Assembly: GCA_000091205.1 (NCBI GenBank)
Contig: AP006492.2
Strand: one strand, 5' to 3'
Origin: Cyanidioschyzon merolae
Lineage: Eukaryota
Length of the DNA stretch: 64,000 nucleotides
A program made the translations under genes and the position numbers. Below the pieces are notes generated by a model. The model was not told where the DNA came from. It did no database searches and saw nothing but the letters and a program-made list of their open reading frames with translations. Below, piece after piece: positions 3,183 through 63,185 of this stretch (positions are counted from its first letter, which is position 1; each line of letters starts with the position of its first letter).

Positions 3183-4424
3183 TGTTCAGCTGCATCTTCT
3201 TCTGTTTGGATTGCTTGCTTTTACTCCTTCTCCTCTACTTGATGTGCTTCCATAGTTGTGATTGTTATACTTCGCACCCGTTTCCTCTCGGAACTTAGAC
3301 GTACAGGGTAGACGGTTGCACTGGAACCCGTCTTTTTCATCTATGAGCGGATCTAGCGTTCCTCAGGTTCCATGTCGTTAACTCCGCCATGGCGAGCACG
3401 CCCACGGACTCTCGCGCACCTGTACGCTCGCTCTGGTGCACGAGCACACAACCAATGGTTCAGCCCAGAGCGGACAACGGTAGATAACGACGTGTCGAAG
3501 CGCCTATTTGGCCCAGATGCGAACGGCCCGTGTACTGATCCGCCCGCGTAAAACTGGCGTTTGAGAACAGAGAAGACGTCTTTGACTCCACCGAACCAGG
3601 ACAGCTGGACTGGAACAAAGAGCAGTTCGACGTACCGATAAGCTGCAAAGTCCCGGGCTGCTTTTGAGCAGCGCAAGGCGGCGGCGTCGAAGAGCAGGGC
3701 ACAAGTACATGGTAAGGAGAATTCATGGGATGCCTCGACGAAGAATGAAGTGATGAATGATGACGTCCGTTTTGCGATTCGTAGGCGGTCACACAATCGC
3801 ATTCCCTCCAGGGATGATGTTGTTATCAAGAGGCTCGCTTGTGTCTTTTCTACGAACGGCGGTCTGCCGCTCTCTGAGTACTAACGTACGAATCTGCCAT
3901 TCCTCCCGAATGCCGTTTCATCGAGTGAGACGAATGCCCGTGCTTCCTTTCATTTGCATTCGCGTTTCACGACAAAGTCAATGGTGCGTTGTTCAGCGCG
4001 CGATGCTATTCGATAGAATCGCGCATTTTTCTTTATCCATCCGTTTCTCTTGATTGCCGATTATATATGAAAGTCACAGAAGCTTCGTCCCCAATAGGTT
4101 CTTCAGTATGGTTTCTTATAAACCGCATTTAGTGGAATGGATGAACCTTTAGACAGAGTTTGACAAGTTCTTTCTAAGGCGGACGATGTTCAGGATAAGA
4201 ACTACGCACAGAGTGGTGTATCCACTTGCCCACAGTGGCATAACGAACTTGCAAAAGTAAATCCGTTTCCTCCAAGCCAGCGCCGACTGCGCAGTATCCT
4301 TCCGCATCATTTCCGCGTCTACTAGATACATGCTATCTTTGGAACCGTTCAATGAAAACAAACAAACAAACAAAGCGAAGAAGGATGCACAGATACAGAC
4401 GTCCCAGAATGCACTGACCTGGGT

Positions 4425-6277: not shown

Positions 6278-6907
6278 TCATCTAGCGGTTCCTCGGTACC
6301 GTTCCCGAAACATGCTTTTTACGCGCCATACACGCCAACCAAGGGTGCTGAACAGCACCATCATTTCGACCAAGGTCATGACTCGGAGCCGACGCATGCT
6401 CTGTCGCAGTTTGCCCTTCGTTCGTAGGTCTTCGTGTAACGCGTGTTGCGCACGATACTTCAGGTCCTCCAGGGTTTGCGCCAGCGTTAAAACAGAGCGC
6501 TCAAACCGTTTCAGCTGACCTTTTTTCAACAACGCCTCTAGCTCTGGGAAGTGCGGGGCGCTGATTCCGAACCGTACGCTCGCTGCGGGTGGCTCCGCAA
6601 CCCAGCAGAAACAGTAGTCCCCATCGTCAGGCGCCTGGAAAACAAGCTCTGCAGCAGGCCCTTTGGCAGTTTCTAACCGTTTCCGTCCGTCAAGGGTACT
6701 GACCCATGCACGTACTCGCGTTCGTTCCCACTGAAGCGGATAGAACGCCGCCCTTACCCTTTGACCAGTATAGAGACTCTCAAGGACACACGTCTCGGTT
6801 GTGGAGCTGGAGCTCTTCGGATCGAATATAAGCGCGAGCCCCTCGAAAGCCAATAGAAATAGGATAAACAAACAACTTGATGCAATCTTCTTCGACCTCG
6901 CCGTCAT
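6278..6907 (-). CDS. p24/TMED (emp24/GOLD domain) cargo receptor
   Basis: Probable ATG at 6907 ('MTARSKKIASSCLFILFLLAFEGLA' signal peptide). GOLD-like beta region, coiled coil, then a C-terminal TM plus short tail ('MTLVEMMVLFSTLGWRVWRVKSMF'), the typical TMED architecture. The ORF-track extension up to 7015 is upstream sequence, not coding. Confidence 0.7.
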   Translation of the reverse strand: MTARSKKIASSCLFILFLLAFEGLALIFDPKSSSSTTETCVLESLYTGQRVRAAFYPLQWERTRVRAWVSTLDGRKRLETAKGPAAELVFQAPDDGDYCFCWVAEPPAASVRFGISAPHFPELEALLKKGQLKRFERSVLTLAQTLEDLKYRAQHALHEDLRTKGKLRQSMRRLRVMTLVEMMVLFSTLGWRVWRVKSMFRERYRGTAR

Positions 6908-6979
6908 ATTGTAGCTGCGGAGGCGCGCTTTTCTGTTTCGATCCGTGTTGGTAACGCGTGTGCGTATGCGTGTGTGTTT

Positions 6980-9490
6980 GCACGTGCACGCCCGACACCG
7001 CCAAACGTCTTTCAAAAGAAAAACGGTGTCACCGGCGGTGTAGAGGCGGCGAAACCCGCCTTAGACTAGACGTCATTAACTAACTTGCAGACGCCTCCCC
7101 GTCTTTTTCGACCGGCCACCCACTACTGCTTCCCATTTCTTCTCATATAGTTCCACTTTCAGTGACTGTCCAACAAAGAGCTCTCTTGTCTGCTCTGGAG
7201 GTCTTGTCTCCAGCACCGCTCATTTCCTTATATTGATGGCAGCATTAAAGTCGCGGTTCACAAACTCCATACGTTTCTTGCCATCACTGGTTGCACTTAC
7301 TAATGCAAAGAGTCCACGAACTTTCGCCCTCCTTTCCATTAGCTCCTCCGTCAGCGGTCCGTACTTTGCTATGTCCTTAGGGCTCCGCTGGCACATTTTC
7401 ATCTCGACCCTCTGAAGTTTACAACCCAGCTCATGGTGTGTATAAGATGTTCGGAACTCGTCTGCAGGTATTGTAACAAAACGCCGTGCACACTCCTTGT
7501 ACGTTCTCGTCGTTGGAGCTGGCGGAGTCCCTTTTTGGGTCATCCAGTGCACCGCTCTGTGCGCTACGACGAGCCTTTGAGTCTTGTCCTCTTTCGAGGC
7601 GCTCAACTCATGGAAAAAGTTCGCGAATGCACGCTGCTTTCCACAATACAGATTCATACACAGACGAGCTCACATGGGCTTTGTATACTCCTCCCACAGC
7701 GCCTCCCAATGAGCAACACGAACTTCCATGAATTTCCGAAAAGCTGTAAAGTCCGCTCCTCGGCTCGTCACCTCGCTCATAGCTTCCAGGTGCTCTTTCA
7801 TTCCTGAATTCCACGTCTCAGTTTTCTTCCTCGCATTCATGGTTCCCGATTCCCGGTAATATCTCGCATTCGAGAGCTTGAACACACGCATGTCTTTCTG
7901 ACGTAATTTGCCGTCAGTACCGTCTTCCGCACGCTTGGGTGCAGCAAGGGCTAGGATGTTCGTGCTCCCAGGGTCAAGGCCAACGACCAAGTCGTTCTCC
8001 TGCACCTCCTGCGTCGCAGGAACTGTCTCCTTGTTTTCTCCATGCTTCGTCACGGGCGAAGCCGAAGGCATGATAGGATGATCCGCATTCAAGCGCCGAC
8101 ACTGTAAGCATATGGATACCCCATCGATATGGATGATCCCTGTGAATGCTTTTTTCGTGCTCGTATTGAGACGTTTGAAATAGAAGATAGTCTTCCAATG
8201 AGTCTCCCGGTTATCGCCGGTGAACTCTATCTGCCTTACATCGAATTCCAGACTGATCTCCATCATGATGCCGTAAAGGACTCTGGAGTCGATCGTCACG
8301 AAGCATGACTTGACGTTGCACAACTGAAAGACGTTGAAGCACTTGCCCTGAAGCGCAGTCTTCCGTTTCACCGACTCTTCACGTTTTCCCCGCTCAGCTC
8401 CATCTACGCCTTGCGTTCGAATTCTCGGTTCAGGAGCACGATATAGCGCAGGATGAGGGGATAACATCTTTTTTCATATCTGATACCCTCTCTGCTCGAT
8501 CGACCTGCCCCAAGACTGCACGATGCTCTTTAATAGCCGGACGGATTACAGAAGCTTCGTTTCTGCTTCGGCGTGACGTCTTCTCGTCGAAAAATTCGAT
8601 CTGCTGTTCGTGCTGGCGATAAGTCCTGATTTCATTGATGCTAGCCCACATCCCCTGGCGAGAGAGGTCGGGGTTCAGCGCAAACATAGTGCGTATCATG
8701 AAACGTTCGAAGTTCACGATCATATGGTTCTTCAGGTCCGTGAGGTACTTAATTGCCCCGCAGGTGTATATATTCGAGTCACGCTCGTGTCGAGTGCCGT
8801 CGAAGCGGAATTTGGAGCGATTTGCATGGAGGGCATGCGGTCGCTCAGTTTCCGTCGACGTTTCCTCTGTGCCAAGCCTCAGGTGACGAATAAAGGCCTG
8901 GTCGAAAAATTCTTCCGGAACCTGGACTGTTTTCATGTGCGTCACGTCCCGAAACATCTCCTTCACCAAATGCACTAGCCATGACGAAGCCTTTATAAAA
9001 CTCATAGAGTACGACTCGACGCAGTTTCTAATGGCGTCTCGTAACTTTTCCTCGTACGGATCCTTGATATGTCGACGAAGACAGGCTTTCGCCACCATCT
9101 CGTCGTACTGTCATCTTGCTCGCAGCCTTTGTCGTAGGGCCCCCTGCCTCAGCTTTTTCGTCTTTTCCAGTTCCTTTTTGCTCTGGCTGCCGGCGACTAC
9201 AGCCCTCAAAGATCCTCCACTTTCATTTCCATAACTCTTCTTTTTTTATGTTTTTGAGCAAAAACACACTTTGAACGCTTCTGCTATAAACCGCGAATAG
9301 TCACTTGAATCCACTCCCATGAGGGTCAAAGCACAATTGAACTGAAAAACTCTACCTTGCTACGACTTGAAAGCAAATACAACTTGCACGTTAGAACTAC
9401 AGATCAACGAATAGTCAGGATTGCGTTCCCTTTCAACGGCGATACGCGCGTCGTGTCTCATGGATGCCAGAGCTCTCGGGTGCGCGTATC
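6980..9490 (-). mobile_element. Fanzor/TnpB-like element, copy A (~2.5 kb)
   Basis: Alignable with copies B, C and D from the right end (~85 nt past the protein stop; homology with B ends about 6980) to the left end (about 9485). Carries the TnpB/Fanzor-like ORF listed below. Confidence 0.6.
7063..9098 (-). pseudogene. Fanzor1/TnpB-like RuvC nuclease ORF, copy A (~630 aa, interrupted)
   Basis: ATG at 9098, with an in-frame TGA four codons upstream. RuvC-I 'NDLVVGLDPGSTNILALA'. Cys/His cluster 'KECARRF...HHELGCKLQRVEMKMC'. RuvC-III 'KKRMEFVNRDFNAAINIRK'. Defects: one frameshift near 8430-8467; in-frame TGA at 7670-7672 aligned to Trp (TGG) in copy B; TGA at 7220-7222 directly after 'NIRK'; TAATGA near the conserved C-terminal extension. 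The shared stop TAA at 7063-7065 matches copy B. Confidence 0.6.
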
Positions 9491-10203
9491 GGCCACGCTA
9501 TGTAGAACAAAGAACAGAGACTCACTACTAACTCGCAACGAGATAACAATTTCTTTTCCCCACTATGATAAATGTTAAAAGTGGGCAACGGTTTCCGCAC
9601 TGTCGAACGTTTACCTTCTCGGCGGAAGGTCCCACGAGCCAGACGAGTCTGCCGGGCTAGTGCTTCGTGCACAAGCGAGCGACGAGTTCAGTGGCGAGAC
9701 CTGAGCAGCTCGTCCGCAACGTAGTTTATTCTGGGACTAGGATCGGGTAGCCTGCGTCTGGGCGTCACTCTTGTTGCAGTGGCCTCCTAGTATATCAATT
9801 CGGATTGCCGCCTGTACTAGGTCCGTCTGCGCTGCTTGCAGGCTCCCAGAATGATTATGAATCCCAGATCCCCATCAGGTGAAGCTTTCCTCGATCCGAC
9901 GCCCTCTGTGGTTTGGCAACGCCGTTCTGCCTCCCTGCAGCATCTGCCCAGAGGTTTAGGCGCCATCGCCGATGCTCAAAGCAGGCAATCGGCACACGAT
10001 AGAACATACGAAACGACCAGTACATCCGAGAGAAAGTATAAGTAATGGAACTAGAAGACAGGGCACAGCATAATAAGTGTCTTCCCGTTTGCCTGTGACG
10101 ATCCCGCAATCTGGGATCCATGGACCATAGAGACAATGTACAACCATGAAAAATACGGCCCAAGAGGCAGCCAGCGCATCCTTTTTGACCGTTATGTACA
10201 TAA

Positions 10204-17488: not shown

Positions 17489-18697
17489 CTAGGTCGCGTA
17501 GAGTACTTCAGCAGGCGAGTAATCGTCAAAAGCTCGCGGTGAGCGCCGATGCTCCAGTCGCAAGTGCTGGTGCACGTCCGGCCATACCTGCACACAATTT
17601 GGTCCATACGCTTCAGCAACAGCATGAACAGCTGTGTAGTACACCTGGTCAGTACGTACGAAGCACTTTTCACGGTTCAGGTGCGGTTTGCAAACGCGAT
17701 CAACGGGAGCGGCAGCACCTAGCCATGGCCTCCGGAGCGACGTCTGAGAGGCTTCGCTCCAGTTCAGAGCCGGTTCAATAACGTCGTAACGCCACCAGCA
17801 AGGCACTCGAACACTGCACAGGTTAATCGGTAGTTGTCTTTCAATGTCATCCAGCACATGCAGTACCGGGCTTTCCGGATTAGAGCGCAGCGCATTTTCG
17901 CTCGGAACGATGTACTCGTCCACATCTGCGAAAAGAATCCATTTGAATATGCCGCGATTCCGCCACAAACAATCGTTCATGGCTGCAATCTGAACATGAT
18001 TCCAGTGCACGCCCTTTGGTGGACGAAATGGCCACGCTATGATCGATACATTCGCAGGCACATCGGCGAGTCGCTCCGTCAATTCATCCCTAAGCTCCAT
18101 TATTCTGGAACCACAGGCATCCGGCTCATTGAGATAGATGAAAAAATTCCGAATGCCGACCCTTGTATGGTGTATGATCCACGACAGGAGGAGGCTCTGC
18201 GAAACGGAGCGTTCTACGTTGTTCGGCCGACGGTTCTCCTGAGACTCAGGGCGCAACCGCAGCATCGTCCAGGCAGCGAGATGTAACTGCTCGTTTGGAG
18301 CAGTTCCTTCGAAAGCATCGGCGTCTGGTTTGCACTGCAGAATGAGCACTTCGTTTTGCGGGTCTAGGCGTGGCGGGAGAACGCCACCGGGCGCACACCA
18401 CGTCGCTGCTGCTTGCTCTACAGTGCGCCGGTCCAGGGGCCCGCGAGCGCTCAAGACCAGCGTTTCAAGACCGTCACGTGACCGGAACCTGTCAAGGACG
18501 CGTAGCTTCGCGTAGGAGGTGATTCCTGTAGTCTCCTGGGTAAAACGGCATGCTTCTAGTATGGAAAGCGTGCGCTCGAGAGCATCGCCCGACCTGGAGT
18601 GAAGTAATACCAGGAGCGTCAGCAGCAGGACGCAACCGGACAGCAGTCTTCTCGGGAAACCTGTTCCAGACGCACCTCCGACACCAACAACAAACAT
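17489..18697 (-). CDS. Type II membrane glycosyltransferase, GT92 (DUF23)-like
   Basis: ATG at 18697 ('MFVVGVGGASGTGFPRRLLSGCVLLLTLLVLLHS' signal anchor). Luminal domain with a DxD-type motif in 'WILFADVDEYIVP', GT92-like. Its start codon lies inside sequence homologous to the Fanzor right end of copies A and C. Confidence 0.45.
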   Translation of the reverse strand: MFVVGVGGASGTGFPRRLLSGCVLLLTLLVLLHSRSGDALERTLSILEACRFTQETTGITSYAKLRVLDRFRSRDGLETLVLSARGPLDRRTVEQAAATWCAPGGVLPPRLDPQNEVLILQCKPDADAFEGTAPNEQLHLAAWTMLRLRPESQENRRPNNVERSVSQSLLLSWIIHHTRVGIRNFFIYLNEPDACGSRIMELRDELTERLADVPANVSIIAWPFRPPKGVHWNHVQIAAMNDCLWRNRGIFKWILFADVDEYIVPSENALRSNPESPVLHVLDDIERQLPINLCSVRVPCWWRYDVIEPALNWSEASQTSLRRPWLGAAAPVDRVCKPHLNREKCFVRTDQVYYTAVHAVAEAYGPNCVQVWPDVHQHLRLEHRRSPRAFDDYSPAEVLYAT

Positions 18698-21286
18698 CTC
18701 CCAAAAGAAAAACGTTGTGACCGCCAGTGGTGTACAGTAGTGGCGAGTGCTCCGCCTTAGACTAGACGTCGCCAACTGACGAGCTGATGCCTTCCAGTCT
18801 TTTTCGACCGGCCACCTACAACGGCTTCCAATTTTTTCTCATATAATCCCACTTTGAGTGGTTGTCCCTTAAAATTCTCTCTTGACAGCTGTGGAGGTTT
18901 TTTCTCCATCACCGCGCATCTCCTGATATTGATGGCGGTGTTAAAATCTCGGTTCACAAACTCCATACGTTTCTCGCCATTGTTGGTACTCACCAATGCA
19001 AGCAATCCTCGAACTTTCGCCATCCTTTCCATCTGCTCCTCCGTCAGCGGTCCGTATTTTCTTATCCTCAGGGCTCCTCATGCACATTCCTACCTCCACT
19101 CTCTGAAGTAGACACCCCAGCTCATGGTGTGTATACGACGTTCGAAACTCACCTACAGGTATTGTTACAAAGCGCCTTGCGCACTCCTTATACGCACTCG
19201 TCGTTGGAGCTGGCGTAGTTCCTTTTTGGGTCTTCCAGCGCCCTGCTCCGTATGCTACTACGAGCCTCTGACTTTTTTTATCCTCCTTCAAGGCGCTCAT
19301 CTGATTGAAAACGTTCGCAAATGCCCGCTGCCTCTCTCCGTATAGACTCATACGCAGACGAGCCCACCGGGGCATGGTATACTCCTTCCACAGTGCGTCC
19401 CAATGGGCAACGCGAACTTCCATGAATTTCCGAAAAGCAGTAAAGTCCGCTCCTCAGCTCGTGATCTCCCTCATAGCTTCGAGGTGATCCTTCATTCCTG
19501 CATTCCACCTCTCATTTGTCTTCCTTGCATTCATTATATCCGATTCTAGACAGTATCTCGCTCTCGAGAACCTCAAAAGACGCATGTCTTTCTGAGGTAA
19601 GTTGCCGTCAGTACCATCATCCGCACGCTTGGGAGCAGCGATGGTTATGATATTCGTATTCCCAGGGTCCGCGCCGACGACAAAGTCGTTATCTTGCACC
19701 TCCTGCGTCGCAAGATCCGCCTCCTTCTTTTCTGCATTCTTCGCCGCGCCAACGAAAGTCGTTATCCTGCACCTCCTGTGCCGCAGGATCCGCCTCCTTC
19801 TCACATTCATGGTTCGTCACGGGCGCAGCCGAGGGCGGGACTGGACGATCTCTCTTCAACCGCCGATAGTGTATACACAAGGCTACTCCATCGGTATCGA
19901 TCATCCCAGTGAGTACCTTTTGTTTGCTCACCCTCAGACGTTTGAAATCGAAGATATTCTTCCAGAACGTCTCCCGGTTTTCACCGTAGAATTCCTCCCT
20001 GCTAACATCGAACTCCGGACTGATCTCCTTCATGATGCCATGAAGGACTGCGGAGTCGATACTCACAAAATGTGACTTGATGGTGCACATCGGAACGATG
20101 TAGAAGCGCTTACCCATCAGGAAAGCCTTCCGTCTGTCCCAGTCTTCAGTTTTCCCCACTCAGCTTCATTTCTGCCTTGCGTTCGAGTTCTCGGTCCAGA
20201 AACACGAAATAACATAGGATGAGGCGATAGTATCTTCCCTTATCTTTTTCAACGCTGATATCTTGTCTGTTGGATTCGGCAGCCCCATGACTGCACGGTG
20301 CTCTTGTATATCCGCACGGATGACGGAGACCTTATTCGTGCTCTGGTTTGACGCCTTCTTGTCGACAAATTCGACGTCATCTTCACGCTTGCGATCGTTC
20401 GTGATGCCATTGATAATCGCTGATATTCCTTTGGGACAGATGCCCGGGTAGAGTGCAAACAAGGCGCGTATCATGTAACGTTCGAGGTTCACTGTCAAAT
20501 TGTTCTTCAGGTTCGCGGTATACTTTATCGCCCCGTATATGTAAATACCCCGGTCACCGCTTTATCGATTACTCTCGAGGCGGAATTCCGCCAAGTTTTC
20601 GTGGAGGGCATGCACTGGCTCATTTTCCCCCGCGCTTACTCTGTACCAAGCATCAGCTGACGAATAAACGTCGCATCGAAAACGCCGTCCGGGAACCTCG
20701 ACCGTTTCCATGTGCGTCACTTCGCGATACATCTCCCTCGCCAAATGCATCAGTCCTGACGAGGCCTTGACAATACTCTTGGAGTACGAGTCGATACGTT
20801 TTTCGATAGCGTTTCGCTAGTGTTCCCTGTAAGGATCCTTGATATGTTTAAGAAGAAAGGTTTTCACCAGCATCTCGTTGTACGGTTGTAGTTCTTGCGG
20901 CCATCGACTTGGGATATCCCCTTTTTGCGTTTTCTTCTTATGCTGTTCTTCTGAACTCGGTACTGTTTTTTTCTTTTCTGGCAGCCAGCGACACTGGGGC
21001 GTCAGGATCGCCGACTTGCTTTTTCATAACATCCTTTTTTTGTTTTTTTTTGAAAAGAACGCTCCATCAACGCCTCTGATATAGACCGCTAAATATCACT
21101 TGGATAAACTAAATTGAGCGTTGAAACATAATTGACCTGAAAAGTGTACTCTGTTATGACTTTAACGAATATACAACTTGTAATTGAGAGCAACACGCTC
21201 AAGATCGCGATCGCGTTTCCCTTCACCAACGACATGCGCGTGGTGTCTCATACCTGCCAGATATGGAGGTGCGCGTATCGACCGCT
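18672..21286 (-). mobile_element. Fanzor/TnpB-like element, copy B
   Basis: Right end about 18672, left end at 21286, where LINE sequence starts. Over roughly 18890-21040 it is about 98-99% identical to copy C (offset +10177). Its left end differs from the left ends of A, C and D. Confidence 0.6.
18757..20871 (-). pseudogene. Fanzor1/TnpB-like nuclease ORF, copy B (multiple frame breaks)
   Basis: Fragments align colinearly to copy A: N-terminus 'MLVKTFLLKHIKDPYREH*' (in-frame TAG), RuvC-I '[18 protein letters not shown]', Cys/His cluster, RuvC-III 'MEFVNRDFNTAINIRR', then a 60-aa extension ending '...VVGGRSKKTGRHQLVSWRRLV*'. Contains an internal ~57-bp tandem duplication ('QEVQDNDF' twice) and several in-frame stops. 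Confidence 0.6.
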
Positions 21287-22570
21287 ATAATCCCTTGGCA
21301 CACGGACTCGAACTCCAAATACCCTCGACAGAAGGTATAGCAGCAGGCTGCCGGGTACGTATATGGGCCAAAGGGCCCGCCATGCGCACCTCTTTGAGTC
21401 GGATTTTCATGCAGACCCCTACGCACCTCAAGAACACTTGGACGAAATTGACGCAGATTGGGCTGAAGCGCCTATTAGACGAACATACGCTCCCCAATCG
21501 TTCCCCAGGAATGTACAAGGCTCCCGCCGCCTCAAGCGAACGGTCCAAACAACAATATGGGAACGTAGACACGGAACCAGTCGCGCCAGTAACGCCGGCT
21601 TGATCCTATACCGGAGCTACAACCTAGCATACACATGCAAGTACTGGTGGGAGGCGCTGGAATTCCCGGGACTTGCTCGAGGTACCCAGTGGCTCGCCAA
21701 AATCCGCGTTGGTGGCTTCTGGCTAGCGGCACCGGCTCTAAGCCGTATAGGGACACTGGAATCGCACTGGGAGTCACACTGTCCCTGCTATCGAGACGAT
21801 AACCCCGAGACGCTGACATATTTAGGCTTACAGTGCCCGCGCTGGAAGCAGGAGCGCAGCGAGCTCCTTGAAGGACAGCAGCAGCTGGGCATCACCATGA
21901 TATCCGAGGGCCGGACACTCACTTTGAGAGCAGCACTGGCAACTGATGGTCCGCTAACAGATCCTCAGCGCTCATTAGTGGCGAACAAACTCACATGCTA
22001 CCTTCCAAGCGGAAGGTCCAGCGGATCGGATGCGCACACGGGCCCAGTGCTCTCTGCGCCTACCTTCTGTATGGGTGTCAAACACAAACCCGCATTGCCA
22101 ACCGACGACAACGCATTCCATGCATGATCACGAAAGAGAGAGGCGGCTCCCACGATATATCCTAACAGTCAAGTTTCTCCAGCGTGTCGAGCAGCGAAGA
22201 CAAGCCTGCATCCGCAGACTGTCCGAGCACACACTGACGACGAGACCCGATTCTACGTCGGGTGAAGCGCACCTTGAGCCGACGCCCTCTGGGGTATAGA
22301 AAAGCCGTTCTGTCTCCATGATGCATCTGTACCAAAGGTAAAGACGCTATTGCGGACAATTAGGACAGGTTCTGGGCACACGATAGGACGTATGAGATGA
22401 CCAGAATATCCGAGATGAAGGATAGGTAATTTGACGTGGAGGTACGGGGGTTGATGGATACCCCACCGCGCACTGTAAAAAAATAACGCAAAAAGTAAGA
22501 AAAGAAAAATGCGCACAATCGGAGAACGCTGGCCCAAGTAAACGCGTTGTCCGTGAAAAAGGACTCATCG
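21287..22570 (+). mobile_element. Non-LTR retrotransposon (LINE) 3' fragment: C-terminal RT/zf-RVT region plus 3' UTR
   Basis: About 93% aa identity to the 3' part of the longer minus-strand LINE at 31400-35100 (ORF 21363..22127 versus 31844..32614). Starts abruptly at the copy-B left end. Its 3' UTR extends further than in the inverted copy; the exact 3' end (before 22700) was not resolved. Confidence 0.6.
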
Positions 22571-24189: not shown

Positions 24190-27100
24190 TTGGTCTTTGT
24201 TTGGGACGATCTCGCTCGATGCGGGGAATCATGTCGAGTCACGAGAGTTTCCAGCAGAGCACGTCTGGTTGCACCGGAATCTCAGGATTGTCTCGAGCAC
24301 AGCGACAGGATTTTCTGCATCATTTGGATGTTGGTTCGTTTGGCGCATAAACGACTTGATGAGCAAATGCACCGTCACACCAGTATCCAAGTTAGTGTCT
24401 GACCAATCAGCAGGGACAGGAGCAAACGGGCGCGTCGTTCGTCAACCGCGTGCATCACCGGCTCTCCTCAACCGAAAACATGCATAAGCCGCAAATGCAC
24501 TATAGAATGTCTTACTGCACATTGGAATACCGTGGTTGTTCCCAAATTGCCCAGCGGAATCGTACACTTTGTCCATAAACGGTGCTCTGGCCTCGCTGGA
24601 TTGCTGAAACGTACCATATCAGTGTCTTGCGCTTGGTTGTAATCCCGTACCCTCCTTCATAATCGCTGATTTCTTTCATCGAAAGTCTTCAGAATTTGCC
24701 CACAATGCCCTCATGGAATACGAAACGATTTTCCCGAAACATCGCTCAATAGAAAGTTCTTGGACGCTCCACGAGCACAAAACGCTTCCGCATGTTAATC
24801 GCGGCGTTGAACTCAAGGAACACGAAGTGCTCGTGCGCACCGTTGCGGGTGGAATCTCATCATGGTACACTCTACGTTTTCGATTGTCTCACCATTTGAC
24901 GATAGCTCAGCATACTGCACACCATCCGATACATCCGGTTCTGTGCCACGCTGTTTTCATCGAACACTTTCAGCGCACAAGTGTGCTATTGATGTGTTTT
25001 TGCCATCCTGACATATCGATGGGATTCGTATCGAATCGATTCCAGCACTTTTTCTCGTTAGCGTCGAGGAGGCAGGGTTGCTGCATTTGGGCACCGCAGC
25101 TCGTTCGGCGTCCTAGACTAGCACGAAACGACGCTACTTTCCAACCCAATGAACAAGTAAGAAAGTGCGCGTTACATTCTGCCACATAACCTGGTTCATC
25201 TCCGACTCCAGCGCTCACTCATTTCCTCCCGCAAAAAGCCTTCGCTTGAACCATTTGGATGCTCGTGTTCTTTCTGATTGAGGCGTACAAAGCACAACGT
25301 CCTGCTCGATGTGGTACTCATTGCATCGAGCTGGGTCCCGAAGCTGCCACCTCACGTGTTCGTATGGCGCCTGGTATCCATCATATTCGACTGTCGAAGA
25401 CGTCGAGCCGTGGGAAAGTAAGGATGTATTGAAAGCCTGTCTCGAGCATCATTTCCGTTGTCTCAAGAAAAACTGGATCGGAACTGTTCCGGAGAATTGT
25501 GGACAGCTGGCAGCCGTGTGTCCGAAACGCCTACGAGCATTTGCTTGTTGAGGGACGTTACAGCGAAATATGCTTGGGGGGCATCCCTCGAGTAAGAGGG
25601 AACGCGATCCCTGCCAGTGCCCCGCTTCTCATGTTTGAGAGGATTCCCGCGATTGATACGTTTTCAGACGGAGACCTTGCCAAGGATTTCAGACCGATTT
25701 TTCCATTCCAACTCTTTGCGCTCTTTGTGTGTCCTCGCCTCTTTTTGAAACAATTATCCCCATCTTAGGCTGGTGGGTTCTTCCGCTCCTCCGTTACTTG
25801 GTGGAGTATCATGTATGTAGTCGCGATGCTCCATATTCGTTTTCGCGTGATTTAGAGGTACAGGCTCTACGATGCCATTAAAGCTGACGTTTTCTGCCTA
25901 CGTTGCTATTAGTTCTTCGATAAAGTTTGGCTATCTGTTGCGCTGCGAGCTCGCTGATGGACAGAGAGGTGCCCTTCGGTTCGCTCCCGCGCAACAGAAG
26001 AGGAGCAACGCAGCAGTTCACTACTTGTGACATCACAGAACGACTAGTCGAAGGACGAATGTGCGCGCTTCAGCGTCGCAGATGCGAACGATTCTTTTAT
26101 GTATCTGTGTGCGTAAGCATTGCATCGGACAACAAGGAGGACGCCTCTGACTGGAATCAGCCCGGGGCAAATGGATGGCATGATGCGCAGCTCAACACAC
26201 GTTTCAGCTGCATTCTTGTTGAAGGCTTTTGAGCAACAAAGTGCGAATTCGTCTGACAGCAGGACAGAAAATTTTGTGGAAAAGAAGCCGCGAAGACTGC
26301 TTCATTGAAGAATGAGATAACGAATGATTACGATCGGTCAGCGTTTTGCAGACGAACGCACTATAGGATTGCCGCTAGAGCTGGTGTTGTCTGAATGCTC
26401 GCCCACGTTTTCTTTACGAACAGCGGTCTGCTTATCTTTTTGGCATCAATGTACATTTCTACCATTTTTCTTGAATACAAACGTATCCTTTGCGATGCAC
26501 ACATGGCCCTGATGTGATGAAGATTCGCGTTTTGTTAAAAACGCGATAGTATGTTGTCCAACGCGCGACGGTCCCGCATAGAGGCTTTGGTTTTCCTTAG
26601 TTCTTCCGCGTCGCTTTACTGCCGGTCCCATCATCGATACGGAAACATCAAATTCCGGAGATTTTTGGTATATTTTTCATTGAATTCGCATGGAGCGGAA
26701 CATATTGACGAAGAGGAAGTGGTGCAGATAGTGTTTTATGAATTATGTTTTGGTTGAATGCGGTTCGGGATATTGACCACGAGAAGGCCTGTCCATCCAG
26801 ATGCTGACTACATAGTAACTGACTCGCTCTTGTAAGGTCGTTTGTTGGCGGGCTAGTTGTGACTACATTGGGTCTTTCTGCATCCTCTATCGCGTTTATG
26901 ATACACATTCCTTCTGTTCAATTTCTGCGACAGAAACAAACGAAAACAAAAAAGCCTCACAGACTTGGATATTCCAGAAATCAGTGCTCCGAGCATCGGG
27001 CATCGACGAACAGAGGCATTGCGGCGTGCATCAGTCGTGGTTACTGCACACAAGCCCTCAGGTTCCAGTTGGATTATTTTGTCTGATGCGCAGAAGCAGC

Positions 27101-28849: not shown

Positions 28850-31400
28850 TCCGCGGCACCCCACGCAACGCGCCAACAACGCCGTTCTGAACTCGAACGA
28901 CGTCGAACGTGTACTGTATTGGCGACCAGTGCTCTAGACAAGAAGTCTCCAACTGATGTGCAGAGACCTCTCAGTTTTCTTGGACCGGCCACCTACTACG
29001 GCTTCCAACCTTTTCTCATATAATTCCACTTTGAGCGGTTGTCCCTTAAAATTCTCTCTTGTCAGCTGTGGAGGTTTTTTCTCCATCACCGCGCATCTCC
29101 TGATATTGATGGCGGTGTTAAAATCTCGGTTCACAAACTCCATACGTTTCTCGCCATTGTTGGTACTCACCAATGCAAGCAATCCTCGAACTTTCGCCAT
29201 CCTTTCCATCTGCTCCTCCGTCAGCGGTCCGTATTTTTTTATCCTCAGGGCTCCTCATGCACATTCCTACCTCCACTCTCTGAAGTAGACACCCCAGCTC
29301 ATGGTGTGTATACGACGTTCGAAACTCACCTACAGGTATTGTTACAAAGCGCCTTGCGCACTCCTTATACGCACTCGTCGTTGGAGCTGGCGTAGTTCCT
29401 TTTTGGGTCTTCCAGCGCCCTGCTCCGTATGCTACTACGAGCCTCTGACTTTTTTTATCCTCCTTCAAGGCGCTCATCTGATTGAAAACGTTCGCAAATG
29501 CCCGCTGCCTCTCTCCGTATAGACTCATACGCAGACGAGCCCACCGGGGCATGGTATACTCCTTCCACAGTGCGTCCCAATGGGCAACGCGAACTTCCAT
29601 GAATTTCCGAAAAGCAGTAAAGTCCGCTCCTCAGCTCGTGATCTCCCTCATAGCTTCGAGGTGATCCTTCATTCCTGCATTCCACCTCTCATTTGTCTTC
29701 CTTGCATTCATTATATCCGATTCTAGACAGTATCTCGCTCTCGAGAACCTCAAAAGACGCATGTCTTTCTGAGGTAAGTTGCCGTCAGTACCATCATCCG
29801 CACGCTTGGGAGCAGCGATGGTTATGATATTCGTATTCCCAGGGACCGCGCCGACGACAAAGTCGTTATCTTGCACTTTCGGGGTCACAGGACCCGCCTC
29901 CTTCTTTTCTGCATTCTTCGCCGCGCCAACGAAAGTCGTTATCCTGCACCTCCTGTGCCGCAGGATCCGCCTCCTTCTCACATTCATGGTTCGTCACGGG
30001 CGCAGCCGAGGGCGGGACTGGACGATCTCTCTTCAACCGCCGATAGTGTATACACAAGGCTACTCCATCGGTATCGATCATCCCAGTGAGTACCTTTTGT
30101 TTGCTCACCCTCAGACGTTTGAAATCGAAGATATTCTTCCAGAACGTCTCCCGGTTTTCACCGTAGAATTCCTCCCTGCTAACATCGAACTCCGGACTGA
30201 TCTCCTTCATGATGCCATGAAGGACTGCGGAGTCGATACTCACAAAATGTGACTTGATGGTGCACATCGGAACGATGTAGAAGCGCTTACCCATCAGGAA
30301 AGCCTTCCGTCTGTCCCAGTCTTCAGTTTTCCCCACTCAGCTTCATTTCTGCCTTGCGTTCGAGTTCTCGGTCCAGAAACACGAAATAACATAGGATGAG
30401 GCGATAGTATCTTCCCTTATCTTTTTCAACGCTGATATCTTGTCTGTTGGATTCGGCAGCCCCATGACTGCACGGTGCTCTTGTATATCCGCACGGATGA
30501 CGGAGACCTTATTCGTGCTCTGGTTTGACGCCTTCTTGTCGACAAATTCGACGTCATCTTCACGCTTGCGATCGTTCGTGATGCCATTGATAATCGCTGA
30601 TATTCCTTTGGGACAGATGCCCGGGTAGAGTGCAAACAAGGCGCGTATCATGTAACGTTCGAGGTTCACTGTCAAATTGTTCTTCAGGTTCGCGGTATAC
30701 TTTATCGCCCCGTATATGTAAATACCCCGGTCACCGCTTTATCGATTACTCTCGAGGCGGAATTCCGCCAAGTTTTCGTGGAGGGCATGCACTGGCTCAT
30801 TTTCCCCCGCGCTTACTCTGTACCAAGCATCAGCTGACGAATAAACGTCGCATCGAAAACGCCGTCCGGGAACCTCGACCGTTTCCATGTGCGTCACTTC
30901 GCGATACATCTCCCTCGCCAAATGCATCAGTCCTGACGAGGCCTTGACAATACTCTTGGAGTACGAGTCGATACGTTTTTCGATAGCGTTTCGCTAGTGT
31001 TCCCTGTAAGGATCCTTGATATGTTTAAGAAGAAAGGTTTTCACCAGCATCTCGTTGTACGGTTGTAGTTCTTGCGGCCATCGACTTGGAATATCCCCTT
31101 TTTGCGTTTTCTTCTTATGCTGTTCTTCTGAACTCGGTACTGTTTTTTTTCTTTTCTGGCAGCCAGCGACACTGGGGCGTCAGGATCGCCGACTTGCTTT
31201 TTCATAACTTCCTTTTTAAGTTTTTATAAATCAGCCCTCCGTGAACGCTTCTGTTATATACTGAGAAAAACAATCGAATATTTTCACTTGAGGGTTGAAA
31301 CACAATCGAACTGAAAACTATACATGCCTATGAAGTTAACAAAAATACAACTTTGACATTAGAGCTACATGCTAGATATCAAGATCACGTTTCCCTTTAA
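28850..31400 (-). mobile_element. Fanzor/TnpB-like element, copy C
   Basis: Near-identical to copy B over about 29067-31217. Its left end is about 55 nt shorter than in A and B and abuts the 3' UTR of the minus-strand LINE at about 31400. The right end lies about 30 bp upstream of the exosome-subunit ATG. Confidence 0.6.
28934..31048 (-). pseudogene. Fanzor1/TnpB-like nuclease ORF, copy C (frame breaks; RuvC-I Asp replaced)
   Basis: Same fragment set as copy B. RuvC-I reads '[15 protein letters not shown]' (Asp to Val). RuvC-III 'NRDFNTAINI' is retained. C-terminal extension '...RSKKTERSLHISWRLLV*'. Confidence 0.6.
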
Positions 31401-60649: not shown

Positions 60650-63185
60650 CCAGGCCACCACCGCCTTTTACACTCGAACGACGCCGGCAGTGTACAGTAC
60701 TGGCGAGAAGCCCGCCCTAGCGAGAAGTCTCCCATTGCTATGCCGACGCCCCCCGTCTTTTTGGACCGGCCACCTACTCCTGCGTCCAATCTTGTCTCAT
60801 ATACTTCGACTTTGAGAGGTTGTCAAACAAAGTTCTCTCATGTCGACTCTGGAGGTACTTTCTCCAGCACCGCACTTCTTCTGAAATAGATGGCGGCATC
60901 AAAGGCACGATTTACATACCCCATCCGTTTCTTGCCCTCATTCGTTGTACTTGCCAATGCAAGTAGTTCAGGAACTCTCGCCCTTCTTTCCATTTGCAGT
61001 TCCGTCAGCGGTCCGTACTTTGCTAATTCCCCAGGGCTGCGCTGACACTTTTCCATCTCCACCCTCTGAAGTATACAGCCCAGCGCATGGTGTGTACACG
61101 ATGTTCGGAACTCTTCTACAGGGATTGTAAGAAAACGCCGTGCACACAAATTGTATGTCCTCGTCGACGAAGCTGGCGTAGTCCGCTTTTTTTGGAGCCC
61201 AGCTCCATGCCCCATAGGCTACCATGAGCCACTGACTCTCATTCTCCTGGAGGCGTTCAACGCATTGAAAAAGTTCGCGAATGAACGCTGCCTACCACAG
61301 TAAGGACTCATAGGTAGACTAGCCCACCGGGGCTTTTTTACTTCTTCTACAGTGAGTCGCAGTGGACAAAACGAACCTCCATGAATTCTCGAAAAGCCTG
61401 AGAGTCCGCTCGTCGGCTCGTCACCTCGCTAATTACTTTCAGATGCTCTTTCACTCCTGCATTTAAAGTATCAATTTTCTCCCTCGGATTCATGATTCCC
61501 GCTTCTCGGTAGTACCTCGATCTCGAGAACCTGAAAAAGACGCATGTCTTTCTGACGTAAGCTACATTCAGTAAAATCTTCCGAACGCTTGGGTACAGCG
61601 ATGGTAATGACGTCAGTATTCCAGGAGTAAAGGCCGACGACGAAGTCGTTCTCGTGTAGATGATACGTCCCGTGGCCTTTCGTCTTGTTTTCGTGCTTCG
61701 GCAAGGGCGGTAACGGAGACGGGATCGGACGAAGTGCCTGCAACCGCTGAAAGTGAACCAATATGTATACCCCATCGTCATCGATGGCCCCCGTGAATAC
61801 CTTCTTTTGGCCGGTATCGGACGCTTGCAATCGAAGTTATACTTCCAGTAGGTGTCCCGGTCTTCGCCAGTGACCTCTTTGTTGCTTCTATCGGGCACTG
61901 GATAAATCTCTTTCTTGAAGGCGTAAAGAAATCTAGAGTCGATATTCACAAAATGTGACTTGAACTCGCATAACCGGACGAAAAATAAACCGCAACAGGA
62001 AAAGGTCTTCAGTGTCATTTCTCCAGAAATTCATTATATCCATACTCAGCTCCATTTCGGCATTGCGTTCGAGTTCTAGGTTCCAAAGCATGTAGTAGGA
62101 CATAAAGAGGGGGTAACAAATCTCTTCGTCATTACTCATATCTGAAAATATTTCTCATGGGTTGACAAGCCCCAAGACCGAACGATGCGTTGAACTAGTG
62201 GCGCGGATAACAGAAGCGTCATTCGTTAACCAGCATGATGTGACCTTGTCGACGGATATGGTCTCCTGTTCATGCTGGCGATCGTTCCTGATAACATCGA
62301 TGATTGCCCGCATCCCTTCGCGAAGAAGGCCCGCGTAGAGCGCAAAGGGGGCGCCATTCATGGAAAAGACGACGGTTAAGATTTTTTGGTTCCTCGCGTT
62401 CGTGAGGAAACCAATTGCCCTGTATTCGTACATATCTGCGTCACCCCTGTGTCCAGCACCGTTGTCGCGGAATTTCTCGTAAATTTTGAGGTAGGCATCC
62501 GCCCGCTCTCTTCTCATTGATGCTTCCCTTTTCGGAGAAATCATGTGGTTGATAGAATTCTCTTTGAAAAACTATTCCGGAAATACCACTTTTGCGATGT
62601 GCGTTACGTCGCGATGCTGCTCGATCTGCAAATGCGTCACTCCTAAACAAGAGCTACAAACATTCCTGGAGTGCGAATCCACGCGGTTCCTGAAACCATC
62701 TCGGAACATTCAGTTGTACGGATCATTGATAAGTTGGAGACGACAGGATCACAAAACCATATAGTCGTACAGATGTCACTATTGCAGCCTTCGTCGTAGC
62801 GCCTCCCCATTTTGCTTCCTCTTCTTTTCCTAGTCCTCAGCAATAGCTACTATGTCTCGTTTGTTCCAAAACTAGGCAACCCAGGACATCCACAACCCAC
62901 AACCTCAAATTACAAAACTCTGACATTTTTTAAGTGAACAACATATCGGACGCTTCTGCCTTGAACGCGAACATCAGTACAATACACATACAGGAAGTTA
63001 GAAACGCCATTGAATCCAAAGCAATACTTTGATACAATTCGATCGCAAATGCAGGCGGCCCCGAAAGAGCAGTCGCTCCAGAACAGGTCAATACCGCGTT
63101 TCTCATGATCGGCAACACGAACGTAGAGTGAAGTAGCGGAGAGAGTTCGCAATGCGTTAGTAGGGCGCACGATATAGAAAGTACA
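60650..63185 (-). mobile_element. Fanzor/TnpB-like element, copy D (most degenerate)
   Basis: Right end carries the same post-stop hairpin block ('ggcgggcttctcgccagtactgtacac...'). Left end homology with A ('gaacgcttctgc', '...tctcatg.at') stops about 63185. Confidence 0.5.
60745..62760 (-). pseudogene. Fanzor1/TnpB-like nuclease ORF, copy D (catalytic motifs lost)
   Basis: Colinear with copy A from 'MVL*..LINDPYN*' (ATG at 62758-62760) to the C-terminal extension 'LKVEVYETRLDAGVGGRSKKTGG'. RuvC-I reads 'FVVGLYSWNTDVITIA' (Asp lost). RuvC-III reads 'NRAFDAAIYFRR' (Asp lost). Multiple stops and frame breaks. Confidence 0.5.

What the first reader, a model, noticed from the sequence alone, without database searches (positions are those of the whole stretch)
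6980..7250. Conserved right-end module: synonymous-rich C-terminal extension plus ~85-nt post-stop segment with compensatory hairpin (candidate omega-RNA scaffold)
Downstream of RuvC-III, copies A, B, C and D stay alignable for ~180 nt of coding sequence. Copies A and B differ there by at least seven third-position synonymous changes (cta/tta, aag/aaa, gca/gcc, gta/gtt, gtg/gta, acg/act, ggg/gga). This implies past protein-level selection on a ~60-aa extension ending '...VVGGRSKKTG..LV*'. Beyond the shared stop, ~85 nt of non-coding sequence is still homologous. It begins with a hairpin whose stem is kept by compensatory change: A 'ggcgggtttcgccgcc', B 'ggcggagcactcgcc', D 'ggcgggcttctcgcc'. 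It also contains a conserved 'cgtttttcttttg' (A and B) or 'cgtcgttcgag' (C and D) block. Homology then stops abruptly at the element boundary. In TnpB/Fanzor systems the guide RNA is encoded at and beyond the 3' end of the nuclease gene and reads into flanking DNA, and this is exactly that position.
Basis: partly seen in the sequence, partly recalled or inferred. Interest (0 to 1): 0.8.

Follow-up and report, generated by a model that had tools for sequence, protein, structure and literature searches.

The report
Fanzor1 transposon right end, probable guide-RNA scaffold
The flagged stretch is the 3' tail and right end of a decayed copy of a eukaryotic Fanzor1 (TnpB-like) transposon, and its about 70 non-coding bases fold into the same two-hairpin layout as known Fanzor guide-RNA scaffolds, which makes it a new member of a known kind of system, not a new kind.

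Summary
The element lies on the minus strand. Four pseudogenised copies (A-D) sit in the window, and more than 505 relatives sit in a few JGI metagenomes.

A profile of 67 homologues hits solved Fanzor1 structures (PpFz1 E=4e-19, SpuFz1 E=8e-12). A confident model of a homologue superposes on SpuFz1 (TM 0.65-0.72).

After the shared stop codon come four parts:
- Hairpin 1: a nearly invariant GGCG/CGCC base with a variable top.
- A conserved linker, CCACUACUGUACAC.
- Hairpin 2, which is long.
- An end at GGUG(U). Similarity between copies then drops to background.

Hairpin 2 exists in two sequence classes with shifted pairing registers.

The base of hairpin 1 and the linker are more conserved than four-fold synonymous sites. 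Hairpin 2 changes sequence but keeps pairing, and its fold is strand-specific.

The layout matches the experimentally defined 75-nt SpuFz1 omega-RNA scaffold, which also lies entirely downstream of the stop codon.

Copies A, B and D show only G-C to G-U changes in hairpin 1, not true compensatory pairs. Plain-alignment covariation tests were negative.

No transcript evidence is available. Verdict: a probable, now-fossil omega-RNA scaffold, and a new member of a known kind.

The parts
7223..7264 (-). Copy A: RuvC-III motif FVNRDFNAAINIRK of the Fanzor1 pseudogene
   Evidence: Translation. Aligns to NRDxNAAxN of PpFz1 and SpuFz1 in the profile search. Coordinates.
7064..7222 (-). Copy A: C-terminal extension coding region. 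In A it is interrupted by TGA at 7222-7220 and TAA TGA at 7078-7073.
   Evidence: pN/pS 0.33-0.62 over about 60 copies. The first roughly 20 residues are homologous to the Fanzor1 C-terminus.
7061..7063 (-). Copy A: stop codon shared by the family (TAA/TAG)
7045..7060 (-). Copy A: hairpin 1 (ggcgggtttcgccgcc), candidate SL1
   Evidence: Fold. The GGCG/CGCC base has pairwise distance 0.07-0.10, against 0.25 at four-fold sites.
7042..7044 (-). Copy A: remnant of the conserved linker CCACUACUGUACAC. Copy A has a 5-nt deletion here.
   Evidence: Covariance-model alignment. Linker distance 0.15.
6995..7041 (-). Copy A: hairpin 2, class 1. The outer stem is ACACCGCCGG/UUGGCGGUGU and the inner stem is CGUUUUUC/GAAAGACG. 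Candidate SL2, ending at the right end GGUGU.
   Evidence: whole 69-nt module -33.4 kcal/mol, z -4.5, 0 of 200 shuffles as stable..
6979..6994 (-). Copy A: flank just beyond the right end, where a guide would be read. Its first 11-12 nt are shared with copy B and locus L012.
   Evidence: Inference from SpuFz1 (14-15 nt guide).
18681..18759 (-). Copy B: stop 18759-18757, hairpin 1 18756-18742, linker 18741-18734, hairpin 2 (class 1) 18733-18681. This is the best preserved right end in the window.
28871..28936 (-). Copy C: stop 28936-28934, hairpin 1 with its 5' arm partly deleted 28933-28921, linker 28920-28913, hairpin 2 (class 2) 28912-28871
60655..60719 (-). Copy D: stop 60719-60717, hairpin 1 60716-60702, linker 60701-60694, hairpin 2 (class 2, apical part degraded) 60693-60655
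   Evidence: (z -0.55).
7265..10100 (-). Copy A: the rest of the element. It holds the Fanzor1 pseudogene body (RuvC-I VVGLDPGSTN, RuvC-II DEFRTS) and an about 950-nt 5' module without a long ORF. The left boundary is approximate (10050-10127).

Best explanation
The region is the 3' end of a Fanzor1 gene plus the right end of its roughly 3.1-kb transposon.

[quoted passage not shown] The proposed layout is:
- SL1 starts at the stop codon and has a GGCG/CGCC base.
- A conserved single-stranded linker, CCACUACUGUACAC, follows.
- A long SL2 closes with pairs that are the last bases of the element.
- A transcript reading on into the flank would therefore carry about 15-20 nt of flanking sequence as its guide.

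In an active copy, the Fanzor1 protein would bind SL1 and the linker through its RuvC and TNB surfaces. It would then use the flank-derived guide to cut matching DNA next to a transposon-adjacent motif (TAM).

Shown here: the family assignment, the anatomy, the conservation pattern, the strand-specific folding and the sharp boundary.
Inferred: transcription, protein binding, guide use and the TAM.

The four copies in this window are pseudogenes. Three of their right ends are damaged: A has a linker deletion, C has lost an SL1 arm, and D has a degraded SL2 tip. They are fossils of the system.
For: Protein
- Profile A6 matches PpFz1 9cf0 (E=4.3e-19), SpuFz1 8gkh (8.1e-12) and GtFz1 9cer (0.007).
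- The AlphaFold model of homologue P0114 (pLDDT 90.6) has SpuFz1, PpFz1 and GtFz1 as its top seven Foldseek hits (E down to 2.8e-17, TM 0.55-0.72).
- D398, E569 and D636 (P0114 numbering) are invariant or nearly invariant in A6.

RNA module
- The same HP1-linker-HP2 anatomy is seen in 61 unique right ends.
- Pairwise distances: HP1 base 0.07-0.10 and linker 0.15, against 0.25 at four-fold sites. HP2 arms are 0.38-0.39 and the flank 0.68-0.70.
- HP2 region, sense strand: mean MFE -17.4 kcal/mol (z -1.6). Antisense: -11.9 (z -0.6). Flank control: -11.8 (z +0.1). The sense strand is more stable in 55 of 61 copies.
- The commonest pair is a G-U wobble at one HP1 position and one HP2 position.
- On the covariance-model alignment of 65 distinct rows, 12 of 16 pairs have a two-sided change, against 6.3 +/- 1.4 in shuffles (0 of 500 reach it).
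- Cognate 5' and 3' halves of HP2 pair at -16.4 kcal/mol, against -11.3 for dissimilar non-cognate halves (0 of 2000 permutations reach it).
- Unrelated hairpins occupy the same site in L055, L001, L005 and L019.

Comparison with known systems
- Its sequence, taken from the paper's supplement, folds into SL1-linker-long SL2 ending at the scaffold's 3' end. The present module does the same.
- Fz1 omega-RNAs share a 7-bp SL1. The region beyond SL1 is described as unconstrained (PMC11423790).
Against: - No RNA data of any kind are available.
- RNAalifold on plain MAFFT alignments finds only invariant pairs and no covariation.
- Within the majority class, pair statistics are no better than shuffles.
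- The positive covariation result comes from an alignment fitted to the structure, and from related sequences.
- The inner pairs of HP1 are unpaired in about half of the copies.
- There is no sequence similarity to the SpuFz1 scaffold and no Rfam family.
- A single-stranded DNA hairpin on the same strand, serving as a transposition signal, would give similar strand asymmetry.
- All window copies are dead.
Confidence: 0.75

Rival explanations
1. The hairpins are DNA-level transposon-end signals only. They would serve as a transposase or Rep binding site, or as a subterminal hairpin acting as an end or termination signal, as in IS200/IS605 or Helitron 3' ends. No guide-RNA role is involved.
For: - HP2 sits 7-9 nt from the element end.
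- The element carries no transposase and must be mobilised in trans, so its ends must be recognised.
- Left-end flanks often end in ..YTGA and right-end flanks often begin with T.
- A hairpin in one transferred DNA strand would also tolerate G-T on that strand only (inference).
Against: - In characterised Fanzor1 elements the right end and the omega-RNA scaffold are the same DNA (PMC10432273; PMC10711439). This rival therefore does not exclude the RNA role.
- The most conserved parts are the HP1 base and the linker, 35-60 nt inside the end. That is where Fz1 proteins contact SL1.
- No terminal inverted repeats or significant left-end/right-end similarity were found.
- No canonical Helitron TC...CTRR ends are visible at the boundaries listed.
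Confidence: 0.12
2. The structured segment is a 3' UTR element of the Fanzor mRNA, acting in 3'-end formation or stability. It would not be a separate guide RNA.
For: - The structure is on the sense strand and begins at the stop codon.
- A U-rich loop and tract are present in class 1 of HP2.
Against: - A UTR element has no reason to end exactly at the last base of the transposon. Here the closing pairs of HP2 coincide with the homology boundary.
- The layout matches validated Fz1 scaffolds.
Confidence: 0.08
3. Right-end similarity is only shared ancestry from recent copying. No selection acts on structure or sequence.
For: - Within the majority class the stems are almost invariant, and covariation statistics equal the shuffles.
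- B and C are 100% identical over 2 kb.
Against: - Copies differ by 25% at four-fold sites but by only 7-15% in the HP1 base and linker.
- The HP2 arms differ by 38-39% yet remain complementary within each copy.
- Different sequences form a hairpin at the same site.
Confidence: 0.04

Closest known systems
Spizellomyces punctatus Fanzor1 (SpuFz1) and its omega-RNA (PDB 8GKH; Saito et al. 2023, PMC10432273)
   Same: - A single-ORF element of about 2-3 kb present in many copies.
[quoted passage not shown]
- The predicted layout is SL1, a short linker, then a long SL2 closing at the scaffold/guide junction.
- Protein fold match, TM 0.65-0.72.
   Different: - No sequence similarity between the RNAs.
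- About 14-15% protein identity.
- SpuFz1 elements have clear 30-nt inverted repeats and ORF-less 'ghost' copies. Neither was found here.
- This family has an about 950-nt 5' module without a long ORF, a roughly 30-residue longer C-terminal tail and internal 23-residue repeats.
Parasitella parasitica Fanzor1 (PpFz1, PDB 9CF0; Xu et al. 2024, PMC11423790)
   Same: - Best sequence-profile match (E=4.3e-19). It includes DEFRTS, NRDxNAAxN and the RPPxFxR C-terminus.
- Its omega-RNA has only SL1 and SL2.
   Different: The PpFz1 SL2 has four base pairs. Here SL2 is long, up to 19 bp. PpFz1 also carries an extra cyclophilin-binding insertion.
Insect-virus Fanzor1 reRNAs (SfAV; Yoon et al. 2023, PMC10711439)
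   Same: Non-autonomous elements that encode only the Fanzor. The reRNA includes the transposon end and reads about 15 nt beyond it.
   Different: Those elements have clear TIRs and TSDs and a predicted three-stem RNA. Here there are two stems and no recognisable TIR or TSD.
Bacterial TnpB reRNA/omega-RNA (ISDra2, IS200/IS605; ISXfa1, IS607)
   Same: The guide RNA is encoded at the 3' end of the nuclease gene and reads across the right end into the flank.
   Different: - The bacterial scaffolds overlap the ORF extensively.
- The IS607 TnpB (ISXfa1) reRNA studied needs a pseudoknot, and Yoon et al. suggest the same for TnpBs and Fanzor2s generally. None is evident here.
- A TnpA transposase is associated with them, and they are prokaryotic.

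Membership tests
Fanzor1 (eukaryotic TnpB-like RNA-guided nuclease) | RuvC-I with the DPG signature, RuvC-II Glu in DEFRTS and RuvC-III NRDxNAAxN | tested here: met
   Copy A keeps VVGLDPGSTN, ADEFRTS and NRDFNAAINI. D398, P399, G400, E569 and D636 (P0114 numbering) are invariant or nearly invariant in 67 homologues.
Fanzor1 (eukaryotic TnpB-like RNA-guided nuclease) | Significant sequence-profile similarity to experimentally characterised Fanzor1 proteins | tested here: met
   PpFz1 E=4.3e-19, SpuFz1 8.1e-12, GtFz1 0.007. A single sequence and a shallow profile gave nothing. Pfam gives only a sub-threshold Cas12f1-like TNB hit.
Fanzor1 (eukaryotic TnpB-like RNA-guided nuclease) | Fanzor1 fold (WED, REC, RuvC and TNB domains) | tested here: met
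   The model of homologue P0114 (about 42% identical to copy A) has pLDDT 90.6. Its top seven PDB matches are all Fanzor1 chains, followed by Cas12f. Applying this to the window copies is an inference from homology.
Fanzor1 (eukaryotic TnpB-like RNA-guided nuclease) | Encoded in a eukaryotic (or eukaryotic-virus) genome within a mobile element | tested here: met
   Neighbouring genes include emp24/GOLD, an RNase PH exosome subunit, GT92, a Surp module protein, PGK and PMT. There are four copies in 64 kb and more than 505 in metagenomes. The organism was not identified.
Fanzor1 (eukaryotic TnpB-like RNA-guided nuclease) | Intact ORF and RNA-guided DNA cleavage | tested here: not met
   All four window copies have frameshifts and in-frame stops. 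Near-intact frames exist elsewhere, for example L010 with 778 codons. Activity cannot be tested with these tools.
Fanzor1 omega-RNA scaffold | Conserved non-coding segment on the sense strand between the 3' end of the nuclease ORF and the transposon right end, followed by variable flank | tested here: met
Fanzor1 omega-RNA scaffold | SL1 of about 7 bp followed by further stem-loop(s) up to the guide junction | tested here: met
   Predicted HP1 has 5-9 bp. HP2 closes at the last base of the element. The fold layout is the same as for the SpuFz1 scaffold sequence. This is prediction only.
Fanzor1 omega-RNA scaffold | Base pairs supported by covariation | tested here: inconclusive
   Negative on plain alignments. 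Positive on the model-fitted alignment (12 of 16 pairs, 0 of 500 shuffles) and in the cognate versus non-cognate arm test (0 of 2000).
Fanzor1 omega-RNA scaffold | Transcribed as a small RNA that reads 14-20 nt into the flank and co-purifies with the protein | not testable with these tools
   No expression data are available.
Rfam families | Match to a curated covariance model | tested here: not met
   No hit at gathering score in the whole window. The only hit in 6900-7300 is a chance-level one at E=2.2.
IS200/IS605 or IS607 TnpB element | Associated TnpA (Y1 or serine recombinase) and a prokaryotic context | tested here: not met
   No further long ORF within the element. No NCBIfam hit on the Fanzor ORF pieces of copy A. 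The context is eukaryotic. TnpA was not searched for directly.
Tc1/mariner-type (DDE_3) Fanzor1 carrier | DDE_3 transposase inside the element, with TIRs | tested here: not met
   Distant relatives have DDE_3 directly upstream of the Fanzor gene. The window family does not. DDE_3 remnants lie elsewhere in the window. No TIRs were found.

The most novel reading that the evidence does not exclude
The right-end RNA module may be maintained independently of its own ORF. Under this reading, the many ORF-dead copies still supply guide RNAs in trans to a few intact nucleases. The two long-lived hairpin 2 classes, with shifted pairing registers, would then be interchangeable or recombining scaffold variants.

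A side possibility concerns copy B. The only plausible start codon of the downstream GT92 glycosyltransferase (ATG 18697-18695, minus strand) lies inside the right end of copy B. The element may therefore have been co-opted as that gene's 5' end.
Probability: 0.15. Interest if true: 0.55.

Novelty: new member of a known kind. Interest (0 to 1): 0.4.

Why it matters
- It adds a large and so far uncharacterised Fanzor1 subfamily, with a compact candidate omega-RNA scaffold of about 62-79 nt lying entirely downstream of the ORF. The subfamily has more than 505 copies in a few metagenomes. The wider protein family has 6,517 cluster representatives at E<=1e-3.
- It shows that proteins carrying Pfam DUF8286 (PF26935) are Fanzor1 nucleases, which is a useful annotation link.
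- It gives a natural experiment on scaffold evolution. The SL1 base and linker are constrained, while SL2 is free to change sequence and even pairing register. This agrees with the conclusions drawn from the Fanzor1 cryo-EM structures.
- If a consensus protein and RNA were reconstructed, they could be tested as a compact editor.
- For this window itself, the finding annotates four dead transposon copies.

Tried and rejected
- **Phage DNA search.** A search of the element against phage records found no match.
- **Pfam and NCBIfam.** Scans of the ORF pieces and of 28 homologues gave only a sub-threshold Cas12f1-like TNB hit.
- **Shallow PDB searches.** phmmer and a shallow profile against PDB found nothing. 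Only the diverse 67-sequence profile worked.
- **First AlphaFold run.** The run with the shallow alignment was unusable (pLDDT 44).
- **Source contig.** An exact look-up of a host protein to identify the source contig found nothing on record. The cluster look-up gave no accessions or organism names.
- **RNAalifold.** On sequence alignments it predicted only the invariant base of hairpin 1, or partial stems without covariation. The cause is the 3-nt register shift between the two hairpin 2 classes, worked out by hand from the alignment.
- **Terminal repeats.** Searches for terminal inverted or direct repeats between the left and right ends scored within the shuffle range. The TSD idea, that 'GCGTTGAT' occurs at both ends, was rejected. 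The two copies of the motif do not match each other within individual elements, by inspection of the sequences.
- **5' module as decayed transposase.** The idea that the about 950-nt 5' module is a decayed DDE_3 transposase got no tblastn support.
- **ORF-less right ends.** A search with the covariance model found none in the window. It found two extra hits in the loci, both probably neighbouring elements.
- **Distant relatives.** Their right ends show post-stop hairpins but no alignable shared motif. Giant-virus contigs gave only five remote hits.
- **A hairpin inside the last codons.** The candidate AGACG..CGTCT was considered and dropped, because its variants do not compensate consistently (inspection of the sequences).
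Full report
**What is at the coordinates**

The feature lies on the minus strand. Window 7264-7223 encodes FVNRDFNAAINIRK, a RuvC-III motif. It is followed by 159 nt of former coding sequence (7222-7064), a stop codon shared with the other copies (7063-7061) and non-coding sequence.

A self-comparison finds four same-orientation copies:
- A: 6986 to about 10100
- B: 18672-21288
- C: 28935-31369
- D: 60741-62830

All four are pseudogenes, with frameshifts and in-frame stops. In copy A, TGA replaces the Cys codon right after RuvC-III, and TAA TGA at 7078-7073 replaces Trp-Arg.

The neighbouring genes are eukaryotic: emp24/GOLD, an RNase PH exosome subunit, GT92, a Surp-module protein, PGK, FTR1, PMT and a GDP-mannose dehydratase-like epimerase. 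The long ORFs are uninterrupted and G+C is 55%. The organism could not be identified.

**Check of the observation**

- The four copies align through 57 codons after RuvC-III to the shared stop.
- With about 60 unique copies, pN/pS is 0.21 in the RuvC-III core. Along the extension it is 0.50, 0.33 and 0.62. Past protein-level selection is therefore real, and weakest in the last 15 codons.
- The first roughly 20 residues of the 'extension' (RCAVLExRPPExTRxNF) are not an add-on. They align to the C-termini of PpFz1 and SpuFz1.
- Beyond the stop, A and B stay alignable for 76 and 88 nt.

**More copies**

A protein search found 173 relatives, nearly all in JGI metagenomes. One metagenome scan found more than 505 encoding sites, and 79 loci were fetched. 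After removing duplicates, these gave 61-65 unique right ends, differing by about 25% at four-fold synonymous sites.

**Anatomy of the right end**

Directly after the stop come four parts:
1. **Hairpin 1 (HP1).** It has a nearly invariant GGCG...CGCC base and a hypervariable inner part and loop.
2. **A conserved linker,** CCACUACUGUACAC.
3. **Hairpin 2 (HP2),** which is long.
4. **The tail,** ..GUUGGUG(U).

After the tail, column identity falls from about 0.8 to the background of about 0.4. Pairwise distance rises to 0.68-0.70.

HP2 exists in two classes:
- Class 1: ACGUUUUUC-UUUU-GAAAGACGU (copies A and B).
- Class 2: CGUCGUUCGA-CUU-UCGAACGGCG (copies C and D, and the majority of loci).

The two classes are alignable by sequence, but their pairing registers differ by 3 nt. 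A few copies carry unrelated hairpins at the same place. L055 has a 13-bp G+C-rich one, and L001, L005 and L019 have others.

In well-preserved copies HP2 extends to 19 consecutive pairs, including several G-U pairs. It runs from ACAC... to ...GGUG. Such a module (L026-type, 68 nt) folds at -38.3 kcal/mol, z = -6.5.

**Is it structure or just ancestry?**

Negative results:
- RNAalifold on plain alignments returns only invariant pairs.
- Within class 2, the pair statistics equal the shuffle control.
- Among A, B and D, HP1 differs by a one-sided G-C to G-U change, a mismatch and loop changes.

Positive results:
- **Conservation contrast.** The HP1 base (distance 0.07-0.10) and the linker (0.15) are more conserved than four-fold sites (0.25). 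The HP2 arms are less conserved (0.38-0.39) yet stay paired.
- **Strand asymmetry.** The HP2 region is more stable than dinucleotide shuffles on the sense strand (mean z -1.6). This is not so on the antisense strand (-0.6) or in flank controls (+0.1). The sense strand is more stable in 55 of 61 copies.
- **Model-fitted covariation.** I built a covariance model and used it to realign 65 distinct rows. On that alignment, 12 of 16 pairs show a two-sided change, against 6.3 +/- 1.4 in shuffles (0 of 500). Two positions have a G-U wobble as their commonest pair. That alignment leans towards the structure.
- **Cognate-arm test.** Without any alignment, the two halves of HP2 from the same copy pair better (-16.4 kcal/mol) than halves from dissimilar copies (-11.3). 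None of 2000 permutations reached the cognate mean.

Together these results support a selected, sense-strand hairpin. They cannot by themselves separate RNA from a single-stranded DNA hairpin on the same strand.

**What the gene is**

Pfam, NCBIfam and single-sequence PDB searches were uninformative.

A second protein search, using an alignment as query, reached diverse 600-700-residue relatives. A 67-sequence profile built from them (A6) matches solved Fanzor1 chains:
- Parasitella PpFz1, E=4.3e-19
- Spizellomyces SpuFz1, E=8.1e-12
- Guillardia GtFz1, E=0.007

With the same alignment, AlphaFold gave a confident model of homologue P0114 (pLDDT 90.6, pTM 0.87). Its top seven PDB matches are all Fanzor1 structures (E down to 2.8e-17, TM 0.55-0.72), followed at a distance by Cas12f.

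The catalytic D, E and D residues are conserved and are still present in copy A. The precomputed Pfam label on many family members, PF26935, is DUF8286. Proteins carrying that domain of unknown function are therefore Fanzor1 nucleases.

The family is large. There are 6,517 cluster representatives at E<=1e-3 and 880 at E<=1e-30.

**Comparison with known omega-RNAs**

- Fanzor1 cryo-EM structures show a common SL1 of seven base pairs contacting the RuvC and TNB domains. SpuFz1 and PpFz1 have a single further stem-loop before the guide. The authors conclude that the region beyond SL1 is little constrained (PMC11423790).
- In insect-virus Fanzor1 elements the reRNA includes the transposon end and extends about 15 nt beyond it (PMC10711439).

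The published SpuFz1 scaffold sequence folds into SL1, a short linker and a long SL2 that closes at the last scaffold nucleotide. The module described here has exactly that layout. Position, strand, length (62-79 nt), layout and pattern of constraint all agree. There is no sequence similarity and no Rfam family.

**Most likely mechanism**

In active copies, a sense transcript covering the stop codon to some 15-20 nt past GGUG(U) would fold into SL1-linker-SL2. It would bind the Fanzor1 protein through SL1 and the linker, and present the flank-derived 3' end as a guide for TAM-dependent DNA cleavage.

Family membership, anatomy, conservation, strand-specific folding and the boundary are shown here. 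Transcription, binding, guide length and the TAM are inferred.

Left-end flanks frequently read ..YTGA before a T-rich start (6 of 11 independent left ends end in GA). This is a candidate TAM or target motif, but the exact left end is not resolved.

No terminal inverted repeats, TSD or internal transposase were found. Distant relatives carry a DDE_3 transposase directly upstream of the Fanzor gene. Only unlinked DDE_3 remnants occur in this window.

**State of the window copies**

- A has a 5-nt deletion in the linker.
- C has lost most of the 5' arm of HP1.
- D has a degraded HP2 tip (fold z -0.55).
- B has the best right end, but a broken ORF.

The copies are fossils.

**Rivals**

- A purely DNA-level end signal is not excluded. 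In Fanzor1 elements, however, the end and the scaffold are the same DNA. The strongest constraint also lies where the protein contacts SL1, not at the tip.
- A 3' UTR element would not be expected to end exactly at the last base of the transposon.
- Pure recent copying is contradicted by the conservation contrast and by arm-by-arm complementarity.

**Verdict**

The thing is a new member of a known kind. It is moderately interesting to specialists and ordinary in principle.

Noticed in passing
window 18900-21000 vs 29080-31180 (minus strand): Copies B and C are 100% identical over about 2 kb of interior, including all frameshifts. They diverge at both ends: 70-80% identity at the 5' end, 56-91% over the last 200 nt, and different hairpin 2 classes. 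This points to gene conversion between copies 10 kb apart, or to assembly collapse.
   Followed up: partly
window 18697-18695 (minus strand), inside hairpin 2 of copy B: The only plausible ATG for the downstream GT92 glycosyltransferase ORF (17489-18775, signal-anchor MFVVGVGG..RRLLSGCVLLL) lies within the right end of copy B. Copies A, B and C all sit 90 nt or less upstream of a same-strand host gene.
   Followed up: no
window 6995-6984; also B 18681-18671 and L012 3683-3694: Beyond the GGUG(U) terminus, copy A and locus L012 share TCGGGCGTGCAC, and B has the similar TCGGAGGTGCG. This holds even though L012 has the other hairpin 2 class. It is unexplained. It could be a longer ancestral end or a preferred target.
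   Followed up: partly
window 3515-4290 (minus) and 26461-26823 (minus): Remnants of a DDE_3 (Tc1/mariner-like) transposase (tblastn E=1e-25 and 1e-8). They are related to the DDE_3 genes that sit directly upstream of Fanzor1 in distant relatives (L080, L090, L093). Here they are not linked to the Fanzor elements.
   Followed up: partly
window 9100-10100 (minus strand); pieces at 22258-22430 and 31540-31713: An about 950-nt module without a long ORF lies upstream of the Fanzor ORF. Its identity between copies (about 66-75% by blastn) is similar to that of the element as a whole (about 70%). A 175-nt piece of it also occurs on its own near copies B and C, once in reverse orientation. Its function is unknown.
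   Followed up: partly
Fanzor protein, just upstream of RuvC-I (e.g. L002, L007, P0005): A variable number of tandem repeats of about 23 residues (..[19 protein letters not shown]..) duplicate the segment before the DPG strand.
   Followed up: no
left ends of 11 independent copies (e.g. L028 about 480, L076 about 1060, window about 10100): The flank before the T-rich left end often reads G-Y-T-G-A(-T), and 6 of 11 end in GA. This may be a TAM or target motif. The exact left boundary is not resolved.
   Followed up: partly
window 33212-34567 (minus strand): An ORF with a reverse transcriptase domain (RVT_1, E=1e-18), indicating a retroelement.
   Followed up: no
L080 4840-4885; L090 and L093 just after the stop: Distant family members also have a short hairpin spanning or directly following the stop codon. 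In L080 it is GGGUGGU-UGAAUAA-ACCACC, followed by UGUAUACC. This hints that an SL1 placed at the stop is general in this clade.
   Followed up: partly
P0114 and many homologues: Pfam PF26935 (DUF8286) is found on proteins that are Fanzor1 nucleases by profile and by fold. No paper in the searched library mentions that DUF.
   Followed up: partly
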